Of a DNA stretch of 64,000 bases, positions 38,829-41,050 are shown in pieces. Under the pieces are notes generated by a model. That model saw only the letters and a program-made list of their open reading frames with translations. It was not told the origin of the DNA and searched no databases. Source of the stretch: Shigella phage KNP5; sequence record KX452698. One strand, given 5' to 3'. Each line of letters begins with the position of its first letter. Position 1 is the first letter of the stretch. Position numbers and translations under genes: made by a program.

Positions 38829-38959
38829 TTTGTGAAAAAATTTTTAAAAATTTTTAGGGAATTCTAGGGCAGGGAGGGGCAATTAAAAGATAGGATAATA
38901 TATTATAAAGGGTAGAAACTAAATGATGTCTAGAGAGGTCCAGAAAGGCCTAGATACCA

Positions 38960-38990
38960 AAAAGCCCCAACCTTTTGGTCGGGGTTAAGA
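38960..38990 (-). terminator. Intrinsic terminator 3' of internal-protein-like gene
   Basis: CCCCGACC-AAAA-GGUUGGGG stem-loop followed by UUUUU; near-identical copy at 39519-39549. Confidence 0.6.
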
Positions 38991-38993
38991 ATG

Positions 38994-39467
38994 TTATTTG
39001 ATTTGTTTAGCAGACCAAATGCGGTCTTTAATAATTTTTTGAATGTCTTCAACATACTCAAGAGAGTGAACATGTGGATTATCTTTGAAACTATAAGCAC
39101 GGGCTAACTTTTGGCCTTCGGTTTTGATTACTAAAAGCTCTTTAAGGATAGCTTCATATTTAGAGATAATTCCTTTAACAATATTTTTTTCTTGTGCAAC
39201 TTTAGGATCTGCTTTAGGAGCAGGTTTACCCGAAGCCTTTGCAAAAGCAGCGCCAGTAGCAACTAGACTTTTCCAGGCCATACTAACCGCATTTCCCGTA
39301 AATCCTTCTGCTTTCATGTCGCGAGCAAATTGGAATCGTGATTCGTCAGAAGCATCTTTATAGGAATATTTACCCGCTGCAATGGCTGCTTTTGCGACAG
39401 CTTGAATTTCGGTGCTAGATGCTTCATTTAACACCGCTTCATTTAAAAATTGAGCATATGATTTCAT
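38994..39467 (-). CDS. Internal-protein-like head protein with capsid-targeting leader (157 aa)
   Basis: N-terminus MKSYAQFLNE-A; Ala/Lys-rich body; bracketed by repeated terminator hairpins. Confidence 0.55.
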   Translation of the reverse strand: MKSYAQFLNEAVLNEASSTEIQAVAKAAIAAGKYSYKDASDESRFQFARDMKAEGFTGNAVSMAWKSLVATGAAFAKASGKPAPKADPKVAQEKNIVKGIISKYEAILKELLVIKTEGQKLARAYSFKDNPHVHSLEYVEDIQKIIKDRIWSAKQIK

Positions 39468-39518
39468 CTTATTTCCTGTTTTAATTCGTGGATTTAATAT
39501 ACTACTATATTTATACTA

Positions 39519-39549
39519 AAAAGCCCCAACCTTTCGGTCGGGGCTAAGC
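39519..39549 (-). terminator. Intrinsic terminator, likely 3' end of stable RNA
   Basis: CCCCGACC-GAAA-GGUUGGGG followed by UUUUU on minus strand. Confidence 0.55.
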
Positions 39550-39550
39550 C

Positions 39551-39850
39551 TTGCGGCAACCTTGTCGGGGTTCCACCTGCTAAGGCAAGTGTTTGTACGA
39601 AACGCCGGGATTCGAACCCGGTTATTAAGCAGTTGACGCTACTCAATATTTTTAAAAGGCCATATCTCGACCATATCCGAACGTTCCGTCAAAAACGCTA
39701 CTCGGCTTACGGCAAAGATATTTCCTCGAATCGATAATTCGGTGCGCCGTTTCAGCTGTGATAGTAAAGAACCAGAACACAGTAAAACTGTGGGAGGAAC
39801 TATACTCCAGGGAACATCAGTCCGACGACTTACCGGTAGCGACCCGGTTT
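39551..39850 (-). ncRNA. Putative stable small RNA(s) with tRNA-like T-arm
   Basis: No credible ORF, locally elevated GC, CCGGGUUCGAAUCCCGG T-arm-like element, ends at terminator; boundaries uncertain. Confidence 0.35.
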
Positions 39851-39851
39851 C

Positions 39852-40202
39852 TTAATATTCTTTTAAAGTATCAATCTGTTCACGACGTTTACGCCATAAA
39901 TCAATTGCTTCATACGCAGATTCAGCATTTCGAATTAGTCGGCATTTGTGTAAAGACTTATGATTTTGATATTGTGTAGATAACGGAATTTTATCTAAAA
40001 GGTCTTTACGTTCAAAGTATTCGTAACCATCTAAGCCAAATGAACGATTTTTAAGAAATTGCCAATGACCATATTCGTTTTCGACATAAACATAATCCGC
40101 ATGTTGATAAAGCAAATTAATTACACGTTCAGAAATAACAGTGTCATTGTGATTAAAATAAAATGTTAAATCATGAACTACTAAATAAACATTACCTTTC
40201 AT
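39852..40202 (-). CDS. Hypothetical protein (116 aa) directly 3' of tRNA-Arg
   Basis: Minus-strand ORF. Confidence 0.5.
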   Translation of the reverse strand: MKGNVYLVVHDLTFYFNHNDTVISERVINLLYQHADYVYVENEYGHWQFLKNRSFGLDGYEYFERKDLLDKIPLSTQYQNHKSLHKCRLIRNAESAYEAIDLWRKRREQIDTLKEY

Positions 40203-40219
40203 ATTTTCCTCACTTAATT

Positions 40220-40295
40220 GGTCGAGACAGTAGGGATCGAACCTACGACCTAGGACTTAGAAGGTCCTTGCTCTTCCTTCTGAGCTATGCCTCGT
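40220..40295 (-). tRNA. tRNA-Arg (anticodon UCU), CCA encoded
   Basis: Cloverleaf folded by hand; anticodon loop CUUCUAA; T-arm GUAGGUUCGAUCCCUAC. Confidence 0.8.
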
Positions 40296-40299
40296 ATTT

Positions 40300-40374
40300 G
40301 GCGGACATGCATGGATTCGAACCATGGACCAATTGATTAACAGTCAACTGCTCTACCACTGAGCTACACATCCA
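40300..40374 (-). tRNA. tRNA-Asn (anticodon GUU), CCA encoded
   Basis: Acceptor GGAUGUG/CAUGUCC, anticodon loop CUGUUAA, T-loop GGUUCGAAUCC. Confidence 0.7.
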
Positions 40375-40378
40375 AATT

Positions 40379-40465
40379 GGTGGGGAGTGATGGAGTCGAA
40401 CCACCCGAGTCGCAATGACAATGGATTTACAGTCCACACCGCTACCTCTACGGGATAACTCCCCT
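40379..40465 (-). tRNA. tRNA-Tyr (anticodon GUA), long variable arm, CCA encoded
   Basis: Acceptor GGGGAGU/ACUCCCC, anticodon loop CUGUAAA, class II extra arm. Confidence 0.7.
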
Positions 40466-40477
40466 AATTCTTAATTT

Positions 40478-40552
40478 GGTGGCCCTGGGTGGAATTGAAC
40501 CACCATCTGGCGATTATGAGTCGCTTGCTTGAACCTTCCAGCTACAGGGCCT
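40478..40552 (-). tRNA. tRNA-Ile (anticodon CAU, probably lysidine-modified; tRNA-Met not excluded)
   Basis: Perfect acceptor GGCCCUG/CAGGGCC; anticodon loop CUCAUAA; adjacent to tRNA-Thr as in the T4 Thr-Ile dimer. Confidence 0.75.
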
Positions 40553-40553
40553 T

Positions 40554-40629
40554 GGTGCTGATTGACGGAATCGAACCGCCGACCTTCTCATTACAAGTGA
40601 GTTGCTCTACCTACTGAGCTAAATCAGCA
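40554..40629 (-). tRNA. tRNA-Thr (anticodon UGU)
   Basis: Acceptor GCUGAUU/AAUCAGC; anticodon loop CUUGUAA. Confidence 0.8.
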
Positions 40630-40634
40630 AAACT

Positions 40635-40724
40635 GGCGGAGGCGATAGGATTTGAACCTATGAGTCGCCGGAGCGACTGCCGGTTTTCAAGACCGGTGCA
40701 TTAAACCACTCTGCCACGCCTCCA
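40635..40724 (-). tRNA. tRNA-Ser (anticodon UGA), long variable arm
   Basis: Acceptor GGAGGCG/CGCCUCC; anticodon loop CUUGAAA. Confidence 0.8.
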
Positions 40725-40726
40725 GT

Positions 40727-40800
40727 CTCCATACAAGGATTTGAACCTTGGACCTCCTGATCCCAAATCAGGCGCTCTACCAAACTGAGCTACACGGAGT
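40727..40800 (-). tRNA. tRNA-Pro (anticodon UGG), CCA not encoded
   Basis: C1-G72 acceptor; anticodon loop UUUGGGA; 2 nt from tRNA-Ser (dimeric precursor arrangement). Confidence 0.75.
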
Positions 40801-40809
40801 AAATTAAAT

Positions 40810-40884
<75 letters not shown>

Positions 40885-40889
40885 AATTT

Positions 40890-40976
40890 GGTGCGAGAAG
40901 TGGGACTCGAACCCACAAGGAAATCATTCCGCAGCATTTTAAGTGCTGTGCCTTTACCAATTTGACCATTCTCGCG
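40890..40976 (-). tRNA. tRNA-Leu (anticodon UAA), long variable arm
   Basis: Acceptor GCGAGAA/UUCUCGC; anticodon loop CUUAAAA. Confidence 0.8.
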
Positions 40977-40977
40977 C

Positions 40978-41050
40978 TGGGAATAAAGGACTCGAACCTT
41001 TGCATCCTGGAATCAAAATCCAGTGCCTTACCAACTTGGCTAATTCCCAA
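40978..41050 (-). tRNA. tRNA-Gln (anticodon UUG), CCA not encoded
   Basis: U1-A72 acceptor UGGGAAU/AUUCCCA; anticodon loop UUUUGAU; 1 nt from tRNA-Leu. Confidence 0.75.

What the first reader, a model, noticed from the sequence alone, without database searches (positions are those of the whole stretch)
39551..39850. Non-coding, GC-elevated segment with tRNA-like T-arm ending at a strong terminator
Between the ORF after tRNA-Arg and the terminator at 39519-39549 there is about 300 nt with no convincing ORF and higher GC than the flanks. It contains CCGGGUUCGAAUCCCGG, a T-stem-loop consensus, but no complete cloverleaf. This fits a stable small RNA or a degenerate tRNA remnant, as T4 has species 1 and 2 RNAs in this region.
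Basis: partly seen in the sequence, partly recalled or inferred. Interest (0 to 1): 0.45.

Follow-up and report, generated by a model that had tools for sequence, protein, structure and literature searches.

The report
T4 species 1/2 stable RNAs
This non-coding stretch is the counterpart, in a T4-like phage, of the small stable RNAs rnaD (species 2) and rnaC (species 1, tRNA-like), plus a conserved tail that ends the tRNA transcript; the locus has been known since the 1970s but its function is still unknown.

Summary
The window is a Tequatrovirus (T4-like) genome. Read on the minus strand, the region after the ten-tRNA cluster aligns to T4 rnaD and rnaC.

- **rnaD:** about 39855..39741. The ends are conserved and the middle hairpin has been swapped.
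- **rnaC:** 39734..39596, 137 of 139 bases identical to T4.
- **Trailer:** 39595..39518, about 78 nt, ending in a strong intrinsic terminator.

Rfam has no family for any of the three parts.

Across 17 distinct rnaC sequences from several Tevenvirinae genera, covariation supports a tRNA-like fold. A 10-bp hairpin and a long, partly invariant hairpin replace the anticodon and D arms. The rival fold, a 95-nt tRNA that some pipelines annotate, is not supported.

rnaD, rnaC and the trailer core occur in different combinations in related phages, so they behave as separate modules.

The RNAs are most likely cut out of the tRNA-cluster transcript by host tRNA-processing enzymes. Their biological role remains unknown. 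One published adaptive SNP in a near-identical phage restores a base pair in the rnaD apical hairpin.

Verdict: already known, modest interest.

The parts
39741..39855 (-). rnaD (species 2 RNA) homologue, about 115 nt. The 5' end is placed by homology only and overlaps the UAA stop of the upstream 116-aa ORF.
   Evidence: Aligns to T4 rnaD (NC_000866 71171..71053). The first ~45 nt and last ~22 nt are nearly identical to T4. The middle ~45 nt is a different hairpin type, shared with other phages.
39832..39848 (-). rnaD 5' hairpin: ACCGG / GUCGCUA loop / CCGGU
   Evidence: Present in all 18 distinct rnaD sequences. The closing pair switches from A-U to G-C in 2 of them. The terminator scan also picked it up as a palindrome on the + strand.
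39778..39792 (-). rnaD apical hairpin: CACAG / UUUUA / CUGUG, in the variable middle part
   Evidence: Window position 39780 corresponds to the convergent adaptive SNP of phage BW-1 (PMC12685909). The window already carries the evolved allele, which completes the C-G pair.
39741..39762 (-). rnaD conserved 3' box AUCACAGCUGAAACGGCGCACC. It pairs with GUCGUCG at 39829..39823 to close the molecule.
   Evidence: Nearly invariant across 18 sequences. The closing helix appears in the RNAalifold consensus but never varies, so it is untested. The pair 38:110 covaries U-A to A-U in 6 sequences.
39596..39734 (-). rnaC (species 1 RNA) homologue, 139 nt, tRNA-like. The conserved CAA that follows runs to 39593.
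   Evidence: 137 of 139 bases identical to T4 rnaC. MFE is -50.2 kcal/mol with z = -4.55. Covariance model R1 scores 163 bits and finds it as the only copy in the window.
39727..39734 (-). rnaC acceptor-like stem, 5' strand (positions 1-8). It pairs with 39604..39597 (positions 131-138).
   Evidence: Pair 4:135 is A-U in 7 sequences and G-C in 10, and is never broken. The tandem U.U pairs 5:134 and 6:133 become U-A and C-G in the TG1 lineage. Pair 1:138 is A-U in some lineages.
39657..39726 (-). rnaC long hairpin (positions 9-78), occupying the place of a D arm. Its 42-nt core (39705..39664) is nearly invariant.
   Evidence: 27 pairs that are 96.5-100% paired, 6 of them with compensatory changes. 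The core CCGAGUAGCGUUUUUGACGGAACGUUCGGAUAUGGUCGAGAU is largely invariant across genera.
39623..39648 (-). rnaC 10-bp hairpin with conserved loop CGUCAA (positions 87-112), occupying the place of an anticodon arm
   Evidence: 8 of 10 pairs show compensatory double changes, and 97% of cells are paired.
39605..39621 (-). rnaC T arm: CCGGG / UUCGAAU / CCCGG (positions 114-130).
   Evidence: Unique in the window. 100% paired, with 2 of 5 pairs covarying G-C to U-A. The loop sequence is not canonical in some relatives (L002, L007).
39559..39594 (-). Conserved trailer core AAACACUUGCCUUAGCAGGUGGAACCCCGACAAGGU. P1 hairpin is at 39591..39574.
   Evidence: One copy in the window. The core is almost invariant in Tequatro-, Mosig-, Dhaka- and Roskildevirus, even where rnaC and/or rnaD are absent. 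P1 has one compensatory G-C to A-U change. Folding z = -4.3 for the whole trailer.
39518..39545 (-). Intrinsic terminator: 10-bp stem, GAAA loop and U run
   Evidence: In T4, transcription of the tRNA cluster is reported to end after the species I gene (PMC2330249, citing Broida and Abelson).

Best explanation
The segment is the 3' end of the phage's tRNA transcription unit. It encodes the two T4-type small stable RNAs followed by a conserved structured tail that ends in an intrinsic terminator.

- **rnaD** (species 2): about 39855..39741.
- **rnaC** (species 1): 39734..39596.
- **Tail and terminator:** 39595..39518.

rnaC is a tRNA mimic. Its two ends form a 7-8 bp acceptor-like stem stacked on a genuine T arm. 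In place of the D and anticodon arms it has a long hairpin with an almost invariant core, and a 10-bp hairpin with a conserved CGUCAA loop.

Most likely mechanism (inferred):
1. The region is transcribed together with the tRNAs.
2. The acceptor/T-arm minihelix makes rnaC a substrate for host tRNA-processing enzymes. RNase P would cut at the 5' end, and 3' trimming would occur at the conserved GUA|CAA. This excises and stabilises the RNA.
3. The invariant hairpin core is the part that does the work, by binding a host or phage factor.

rnaD is a separate structured RNA with conserved ends and a swappable apical hairpin. In this window it is cut from the 3' UTR of a 116-aa ORF rather than from behind tRNA-Arg.

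The biological role of all three modules is unknown. My best guess is a non-essential accessory function whose value depends on the host.
For: **Shown here**
- Homology to annotated T4 rnaD and rnaC, in the same order, on the same strand and with the same terminator.
- 814 phage records carry the locus. Several annotate it as rnaC or rnaD.
- The rnaC fold is 92.7% paired over 17 distinct sequences. 17 pairs have compensatory changes. 0 of 500 shuffles reach this, and slid controls give about 40%.
- A single high-scoring CM hit falls in the window. The only other hits, all weak, are true tRNAs.
- In Winkler-, Moon- and Tegunavirus, rnaC sits between tRNA genes. It has tRNA-like spacing (CCA + 5 nt upstream, CAA + 1-6 nt downstream).
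- The core is absent from 185,579 bacterial and archaeal species genomes.
- The BW-1 adaptive SNP restores a pair in the rnaD hairpin.

**From papers**
- A Northern blot with an RNAC probe backed the authors' classification of RNAC and RNAD as late RNAs in T4 infection (PMC9697503).
- The roles of both RNAs are unknown (PMC3014915, PMC12685909).

**From my own knowledge, not re-read here**
- An acceptor-stem/T-arm minihelix is a sufficient RNase P substrate.
- T4 species 1 was sequenced as a stable RNA of about 140 nt in the 1970s by Paddock and Abelson.
Against: - No expression or end-mapping data exist for this particular phage.
- The acceptor stem carries two U.U mismatches in 15 of 17 sequences.
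- The conserved 3' tail is CAA, not CCA, so processing and CCA addition may differ from tRNAs.
- The T loop is non-canonical in some relatives. Strict tRNA mimicry is therefore not universally required.
- The 5' end of rnaD cannot be made the T4 way here, because an ORF intervenes.
- Most helices of rnaD and the trailer never vary, so their folds are only weakly tested. rnaD folding energy is no better than shuffled sequence (z = -0.84).
- Nothing here identifies a binding partner or a phenotype.
Confidence: 0.9

Rival explanations
1. The 3' 95 nt of rnaC (about 39689..39596) is a real, unusually long tRNA with a long variable arm. Its acceptor stem would be formed by positions 46-53 with 131-138.
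For: - Rfam tRNA-Sec gives a weak hit (16.6 bits, E = 2.9) with exactly this fold.
- ARAGORN calls a 95-nt tRNA-Met in the homologue of Enterobacter phage vB_Ecl_id4496.
- A 'tRNA-Lys' is among the features annotated under the match (rnaC plus trailer) in phage G29; I did not check its exact position.
- In T4-type sequences this helix is a perfect 8 bp (90% of cells paired).
Against: - There are no compensatory changes. Pair 49:135 is broken in 9 of 17 sequences, and three consecutive pairs are broken in the TG1 lineage.
- The same positions covary with other partners instead: 42:49 and 4:135.
- ARAGORN and the Rfam tRNA model call nothing in this window.
- The putative anticodon region varies freely between genera.
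- By the T4 annotation, the mature RNA includes the 45 nt upstream.
Confidence: 0.03
2. A decaying tRNA pseudogene or remnant with no function of its own, carried along with the tRNA cluster.
For: - The T arm and acceptor stem are tRNA-like.
- The locus lies in a hyperplastic region where tRNA genes come and go.
- As I recall from older work, T4 deletions of the region are viable.
- The T loop has degenerated in some relatives.
Against: - The non-tRNA helices are maintained by 17 compensatory pairs.
- A 42-nt core is nearly invariant across several genera.
- rnaC plus trailer is at least 99% identical in 366 of 804 records, while the neighbouring rnaD middle part diverges.
- A Northern blot with an RNAC probe supports its accumulation in T4 infection (PMC9697503).
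Confidence: 0.05
3. The segment acts mainly in cis. It would be a structured 3' end that ends, punctuates and protects the tRNA/ORF transcript and insulates the downstream late gene. rnaD and rnaC would be by-products of processing with no role in trans.
For: - A strong terminator is followed directly by a late-promoter-like TATAAATA.
- The trailer core also follows an ordinary ORF in L027.
- The terminator is duplicated around an inserted gene cassette, as in PeSL-type shuffling (PMC4122927).
Against: - A terminator alone does not need 260 nt of conserved, covarying RNA upstream.
- rnaC also occurs in the middle of tRNA clusters, far from any terminator.
- rnaD occurs without the trailer.
- The adaptive SNP lies in an rnaD hairpin, not in the terminator.
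Confidence: 0.15
4. One or more short proteins are encoded here, for example the 50-aa TTG ORF at 39646..39494 or the 42-aa GTG ORF at 39780..39652.
For: Many GenBank records of relatives place 'hypothetical protein' features over this stretch.
Against: - The ORFs have non-ATG starts. One runs through the terminator.
- Variation between relatives follows base-pairing rather than codon structure.
- Curated T4-group records annotate these as RNAs.
Confidence: 0.02

Closest known systems
Bacteriophage T4 rnaC (species 1 / species I RNA; NC_000866 71046..70908)
   Same: - 137 of 139 bases identical.
- Same strand and same position between rnaD and the terminator.
- Same predicted fold.
   Different: Two substitutions. 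One falls in an unpaired base and one changes U-A to U-G in the 10-bp hairpin. Otherwise it is the same gene.
Bacteriophage T4 rnaD (species 2 / species II RNA; NC_000866 71171..71053)
   Same: - Conserved 5' hairpin and about 45 nt of 5' domain.
- Conserved 22-nt 3' box.
- Same position upstream of rnaC.
   Different: - The central hairpin is a non-homologous type. By eye, about four types appear among the relatives.
- A 116-aa ORF, not tRNA-Arg, lies immediately upstream.
- T4's terminal CCA reads CCG here and CAG in others, so it is not a conserved tRNA-like end.
Canonical tRNA, and tRNA-like domains of other RNAs (tmRNA tRNA-like domain, bacterial Y-RNA-like YrlA)
   Same: - Ends paired into an acceptor-like stem that abuts a 5-bp T stem with a UUCGAAU loop.
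- Embedded among tRNA genes with tRNA-like spacing in other genera.
   Different: - No anticodon arm and no D arm.
- Not detected by tRNA or tmRNA finders, nor by Rfam at gathering score.
- Tandem U.U in the stem, and a 3' CAA instead of CCA.
- No tag ORF.
- In YrlA the tRNA-like part is apical rather than terminal (from my own knowledge).
3'ETS-leuZ type sRNA of E. coli, a functional RNA released from the 3' external spacer of a tRNA operon (from my own knowledge; analogy for the trailer only)
   Same: The trailer is the stretch between the last tRNA-like RNA and the intrinsic terminator of a tRNA operon. It is more conserved than termination alone would require.
   Different: - No sequence similarity.
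- No evidence here of release, Hfq binding or a target.
- The core also occurs after an ORF and after rnaD.
PeSL composite terminator/promoter cassettes of T4-type phages (PMC2839356, PMC4122927)
   Same: A conserved stem-loop terminator sits next to a promoter-like element. It is repeated at the borders of a variable ORF in a hyperplastic region.
   Different: - The promoter-like element is a late-type TATAAATA, not the early sigma-70 type that defines PeSLs.
- The upstream 36-nt core is not part of described PeSLs, as far as I could read.

Membership tests
T4 rnaC (species 1 RNA) | Full-length sequence homology to T4 rnaC | tested here: met
   137 of 139 bases identical. CM R1 scores 163 bits.
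T4 rnaC (species 1 RNA) | Same strand as the tRNA cluster, distal to it, and followed by the intrinsic terminator | tested here: met
T4 rnaC (species 1 RNA) | Conserved secondary structure maintained by compensatory changes | tested here: met
   92.7% paired, 17 covarying pairs, 0 of 500 shuffles reach this.
T4 rnaC (species 1 RNA) | Accumulates as a discrete stable RNA of about 140 nt during infection | not testable with these tools
   A Northern blot with an RNAC probe is reported for T4 only (PMC9697503).
T4 rnaD (species 2 RNA) | Sequence homology to T4 rnaD | tested here: met
   The 5' ~45 nt and 3' ~22 nt are nearly identical. The middle ~45 nt is non-homologous but of a type shared with other rnaD genes.
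T4 rnaD (species 2 RNA) | Lies between the tRNA cluster and rnaC on the same strand | tested here: met
   A 116-aa ORF is inserted between tRNA-Arg and rnaD.
T4 rnaD (species 2 RNA) | Accumulates as a stable RNA of about 120 nt | not testable with these tools
   No expression data for this phage.
Canonical tRNA (Rfam RF00005) | T arm: 5-bp stem with a 7-nt T loop | tested here: met
   CCGGG/UUCGAAU/CCCGG at 39621..39605. The stem covaries.
Canonical tRNA (Rfam RF00005) | Complete cloverleaf with D arm and a 5-bp/7-nt anticodon arm, detectable by tRNA models | tested here: not met
   No ARAGORN call and no RF00005 hit even at E <= 10.
Canonical tRNA (Rfam RF00005) | 3' end NCCA, encoded or added | tested here: inconclusive
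   The encoded tail is a conserved (U)A-CAA in all 17 sequences. Whether CCA is added cannot be told from sequence.
tmRNA | tRNA-like domain plus a tag-peptide reading frame | tested here: not met
   ARAGORN finds no tmRNA. No Rfam tmRNA hit.
tRNA-operon 3'ETS-derived sRNA (trailer only) | Lies between the last tRNA(-like) gene and the operon terminator | tested here: met
   39595..39518.
tRNA-operon 3'ETS-derived sRNA (trailer only) | Released as a stable fragment that binds Hfq and base-pairs with targets | not testable with these tools
   No data. A BLAST of the whole 339-nt unit (39517-39855, rnaD to terminator) against E. coli genomes found nothing, but short seed matches could not pass the E-value threshold.
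PeSL terminator/promoter cassette | Stem-loop terminator joined to an early sigma-70-type promoter, repeated at indel borders | tested here: inconclusive
   The terminator is repeated at the borders of an inserted ORF. The adjacent promoter-like motif, however, is late-type TATAAATA.

The most novel reading that the evidence does not exclude
rnaC, rnaD and the 36-nt trailer core are three independently mobile RNA modules of the Tevenvirinae accessory genome.

rnaC would be a tRNA-mimic cassette. It uses the host tRNA-processing machinery for excision and stability, and presents an invariant hairpin as a decoy or sponge for a host factor. That factor could be a tRNA-directed defence nuclease or another tRNA-binding protein.

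The trailer core would be a separate functional RNA of the 3'ETS type rather than mere terminator context.

None of the three is in Rfam. On my reading, the single convergent SNP reported for BW-1 falls in the rnaD apical hairpin, which hints at a host-specific fitness effect.
Probability: 0.2. Interest if true: 0.6.

Novelty: already known. Interest (0 to 1): 0.25.

Why it matters
As a scan finding it is ordinary. It rediscovers the T4 species 1 and 2 RNA genes, which were sequenced in the 1970s.

It has some residual value because these are among the oldest known phage non-coding RNAs and still have no function (PMC3014915, PMC9697503, PMC12685909). They are missing from Rfam, so they are unannotated or mis-annotated as ORFs or odd tRNAs in most of the roughly 800 related genomes.

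The comparative results here could be turned into Rfam families and used to design clean deletion and probing experiments:
- a covariation-backed tRNA-like fold for rnaC;
- rejection of the 95-nt tRNA reading;
- modular presence and absence of rnaD, rnaC and the trailer core;
- mapping of a published adaptive SNP to a base pair in rnaD.

Tried and rejected
- **Rfam:** searched at gathering and at permissive thresholds on the window and on three related loci. Only true tRNAs and chance-level hits appeared.
- **The 95-nt tRNA fold:** tested explicitly and rejected by pair counts.
- **rnaD as a diverged copy of rnaC or a tRNA:** the rnaC covariance model and Rfam tRNA do not hit it. T4's terminal CCA is not conserved.
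- **A tRNA-Lys anticodon-loop decoy:** the linker reads CUUUUAA in T4-type rnaC, but it varies freely in other genera, so I treat the resemblance as chance.
- **Host origin or host target:** no BLAST match in 5,426 E. coli genomes. This is uninformative for short seeds. The rnaC core and the trailer core have 0 hits in 185,579 bacterial and archaeal species genomes.
- **Wider relatives:** looser core patterns in IMG/VR returned the same 18 loci. The metagenome scan gave 11 contigs; the eight long ones are T4-sized (130-174 kb) and three are fragments of 4.6-7.7 kb.
- **Trailer pattern outside T4-like phages:** the hits are chance matches in G+C-rich coding DNA.
- **Flanking ORFs:** they match only PHROGs of unknown function and no Pfam family.
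- **Classical papers:** the library does not hold Paddock and Abelson, Broida and Abelson, or Miller 2003. What I say about them is from memory or second-hand via PMC2330249.

Full report
**1. What is there**

The window is a T4-like (Tequatrovirus) genome. The stretch 39480-39900 is 100% identical to Escherichia phage KNP1 and 98% identical to phage BW-1, and 814 phage records carry it. Ten tRNA genes lie on the minus strand at 41049..40219, ending with tRNA-Arg.

Downstream on that strand come, in order:
- a 116-aa ORF (40202..39852);
- about 340 nt with no credible ORF;
- a strong intrinsic terminator (stem 39545..39522, U run to 39518).

Only 0.6% of 300-nt windows are as high. The motif CCGGGTTCGAATCCCGG is present once, at 39621..39605 on the minus strand, with none expected by chance. 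No tRNA is called there.

**2. Identity**

The T4 reference (NC_000866) annotates two misc_RNA genes directly after tRNA-Arg:
- rnaD, 'species 2 RNA', at 71171..71053;
- rnaC, 'species 1 RNA', at 71046..70908.

The window aligns to this stretch at 90% mean column identity.
- **rnaC** maps to 39734..39596, with 137 of 139 bases identical.
- **rnaD** maps to about 39855..39741. Its first ~45 nt and last ~22 nt are nearly identical, and its middle is different.
- **The remaining ~78 nt** (39595..39518) match the T4 sequence up to and including the terminator.

A few curated relatives (RB3, RB27, RB59, Kha5h) annotate rnaC and rnaD here. Most records leave the stretch empty or place hypothetical ORFs over it.

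Rfam 15 has no family for any part. The best non-tRNA hit is a tRNA-Sec match of 16.6 bits, E = 2.9.

**3. rnaC is a maintained tRNA-like RNA**

I collected homologues from five annotated phage records (T4, Virsaitis27, KM16, vB_Ecl_id4496, TG1), 18 IMG/VR contigs and 11 metagenome contigs. The four genera named in those records are Tequatro-, Winkler-, Moon- and Tegunavirus; the Enterobacter phage record gives no genus. This gave 17 distinct sequences (alignment A3).

The fold predicted from the single sequence has an MFE of -50.2 kcal/mol and z = -4.55. Numbering from 1 = 39734, it consists of:
- positions 1-8 paired with 131-138;
- a long hairpin at 9-78;
- an A/U-rich linker;
- a 10-bp hairpin at 87-112 with loop CGUCAA;
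- the T arm at 114-130.

On A3 this fold behaves as follows:

| Measure | Result |
|---|---|
| Cells paired | 92.7% |
| Pairs with compensatory double changes | 17 |
| Shuffles reaching the observed value | 0 of 500 |
| Pairing when 3' partners are slid by 1-3 columns | 38-45% |

Details of the covariation:
- Pair 4:135 is A-U in 7 sequences and G-C in 10, never broken.
- The two U.U mismatches in the acceptor-like stem become U-A and C-G in the TG1 lineage.
- The T stem switches G-C to U-A.
- 8 of the 10 pairs of the 87-112 hairpin covary.

*The rival fold.* The rival makes the last 95 nt a long tRNA, with 46-53 paired to 131-138. The weak Rfam tRNA-Sec hit uses this fold. ARAGORN calls it as 'tRNA-Met' in an Enterobacter phage, and a 'tRNA-Lys' is annotated under the match in phage G29. 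It has no compensatory change. Pair 49:135 is broken in 9 of 17 sequences, and three consecutive pairs are broken in TG1. Position 49 covaries instead with position 42. I therefore reject it.

*Copy number.* A covariance model of the supported fold finds exactly one copy in the window (163 bits). Otherwise it gives only weak hits, 10-27 bits, to genuine tRNAs.

*What deviates from strict tRNA mimicry:*
- A 42-nt core of the long hairpin (39705..39664) is almost invariant across genera. This points to sequence-specific recognition.
- The T loop itself is non-canonical in two lineages.
- The conserved 3' tail is (U)A-CAA, not CCA.

**4. rnaD**

Eighteen distinct rnaD sequences share four features:
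- a 5' hairpin whose closing pair switches A-U to G-C;
- an invariant closing helix, GUCGUCG with CGGCG-AC;
- one covarying internal pair, U-A to A-U in six sequences;
- an apical hairpin that, by eye, comes in about four unrelated versions.

The folding energy of the single sequence is no better than that of shuffles (z = -0.84), so the structure is only partly supported.

T4's terminal CACCA is CACCG here and CACAG elsewhere. The tRNA-like 3' end in T4 is therefore a coincidence.

*The BW-1 SNP.* A 2025 study found a single convergent SNP (BW-1 position 164264, T to C) in all lines evolved on E. coli ECOR34, and placed it in rnaD (PMC12685909). I mapped it to window position 39780, where this window already has the evolved base. 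On the RNA strand the change is A to G. It turns CACAG/CUAUG into the fully paired CACAG/CUGUG hairpin found in the other rnaD genes of this type. The base-pair reading is my inference, not the paper's. It suggests selection on the rnaD structure in at least one host.

**5. The trailer, and modularity**

The 36-nt core AAACACUUGCCUUAGCAGGUGGAACCCCGACAAGGU (39594..39559) is almost invariant in Tequatro-, Mosig-, Dhaka- and Roskildevirus. The small hairpin and the terminator that follow it vary. Its first hairpin shows one compensatory G-C to A-U change. Sequence conservation, not covariation, is the main signal.

The three parts occur in different combinations:

| Combination | Where seen |
|---|---|
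| rnaD + rnaC + trailer | T4, this window |
| rnaD fused directly to the trailer (GCGCACCG\|AACACUUGCC) | IME08, ESCO47 and others |
| rnaD without the trailer; the trailer follows an ORF about 600 nt away | L027 |
| rnaC alone between tRNA genes | Virsaitis27, KM16, TG1 |
| Trailer core alone | IT22, L040 |

They are therefore separate modules. rnaC looks like a ~146-nt insertion between rnaD and the trailer.

Neither the rnaC core nor the trailer core occurs in 185,579 bacterial and archaeal species genomes. No E. coli genome matches the region by BLAST.

**6. How it most likely works**

*Reported for T4.* The tRNA cluster and the species I and II RNAs are made as one primary transcript of about 1.75 kb, mainly from a middle promoter upstream of the cluster. 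It ends after the species I gene (PMC2330249, citing Broida and Abelson). RNAC and RNAD were classified there as late RNAs, and a Northern blot with an RNAC probe backed this (PMC9697503).

*Seen here.* The same gene order and terminator are present. A MotA-box-like motif lies about 95 nt upstream of the first tRNA. This is a pattern match only.

*Inferred.*
- The acceptor/T-arm minihelix of rnaC is the feature that lets host RNase P and the 3' tRNA-trimming enzymes excise it and leave a nuclease-resistant product. From my own knowledge, such a minihelix is a sufficient RNase P substrate.
- The spacing around rnaC in other genera is what one sees between tRNA genes: CCA + 5 nt before, CAA + 1-6 nt after.
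- In this window rnaD must be released from the 3' UTR of the 116-aa ORF rather than from behind tRNA-Arg.

*Unknown.* What any of the three RNAs does. I commit to a non-essential trans-acting role, dependent on the host, for rnaC (about 50%), with its invariant hairpin as the binding surface. A purely cis role, as by-product and terminator context, is the main alternative (about 15%). A functionless remnant is about 5%.

**7. Comparison with known things**

The segment is a member of the T4 rnaC and rnaD gene families by sequence, synteny and, for rnaC, structure.
- It works like a tRNA in its terminal domain but fails the tRNA membership test. It has no D or anticodon arm and is not detected by tRNA models.
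- It is not a tmRNA.
- The trailer resembles 3'-external-spacer RNAs of bacterial tRNA operons in position only.
- The duplicated terminator resembles the PeSL shuffling cassettes of T4-type phages, but it carries a late-type promoter motif (PMC4122927).

**8. Verdict**

The finding is real, correctly interpreted and already known. Interest is low to modest. The locus is a 50-year-old unsolved case that lacks an Rfam family and is widely mis-annotated. The comparative structure and modularity shown here make it easier to test, but nothing here reveals a new kind of system.

Noticed in passing
window 38954-38989 and 39513-39548; ORF 39467..38994 (minus strand): A 36-nt direct repeat (92% identical, 559 nt apart) gives two copies of the same intrinsic terminator. 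The copies bracket a late-promoter-like TATAAATA (39515..39508) and a 157-aa ORF (phrog_2280, no Pfam). T4 has one terminator and no ORF here. This looks like a gene cassette inserted by terminator duplication, in the manner of PeSL-mediated shuffling.
   Followed up: partly
window 39852-40202 (minus strand): A 116-aa ORF of unknown function (phrog_3355, no Pfam) lies between tRNA-Arg and rnaD, where T4 has nothing. Its UAA stop overlaps the first bases homologous to T4 rnaD. rnaD would therefore be a 3'-UTR-derived RNA in this phage.
   Followed up: partly
L026 (Erwinia phage IT22, OP586623) about 1570-1790; also L040: Downstream of a lone trailer-core copy, between two tRNA-Met genes, lies about 220 nt of non-coding sequence. 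It ends in a T-arm-like UGGGUUCGAGUCCCA followed by GCGAGGGGU, which can pair with an upstream CCCCUCAC. This may be a different tRNA-like RNA. It has no Rfam hit and no hit with the rnaC model.
   Followed up: partly
Relatives of window 39596-39734 in GenBank (for example MK327940 G29, PQ824230 vB_Ecl_id4496): Automatic annotation often places 'hypothetical protein' ORFs over rnaC. A 95-nt 'tRNA-Met' overlaps it in vB_Ecl_id4496, and a 'tRNA-Lys' is listed under the match in G29. Only a few curated records name rnaC and rnaD. An Rfam family would fix this.
   Followed up: partly
window 40219-41049 (minus strand): The tRNA set is Gln, Leu, Gly, Pro, Ser, Thr, Met(CAU), Tyr, Asn, Arg, with no segB gene. 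It is therefore not the T4 arrangement. PMC2330249 reports that segB-lacking relatives (T2L, RB1, RB3) carry tRNA-Asn, which holds the preferred SegB homing-endonuclease site. SegB recognises the T-arm motif, so the rnaC T arm could also be a secondary SegB site.
   Followed up: no
window 41146 and 40117 (minus strand): MotA-box-like ATTTGCTTTA motifs occur about 95 nt upstream of tRNA-Gln and inside the 116-aa ORF. They are possible middle promoters for the tRNA/rnaD/rnaC unit. These are pattern matches only.
   Followed up: no
L014, L030, L031 upstream of rnaD: In some relatives rnaD is preceded by ...CCAGCAUUCACCGGCGCAACAAACA, whose GGCGCAAC resembles the 3' box of rnaD itself (GGCGCACC). 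This may be a remnant of a tandem rnaD-like element.
   Followed up: no
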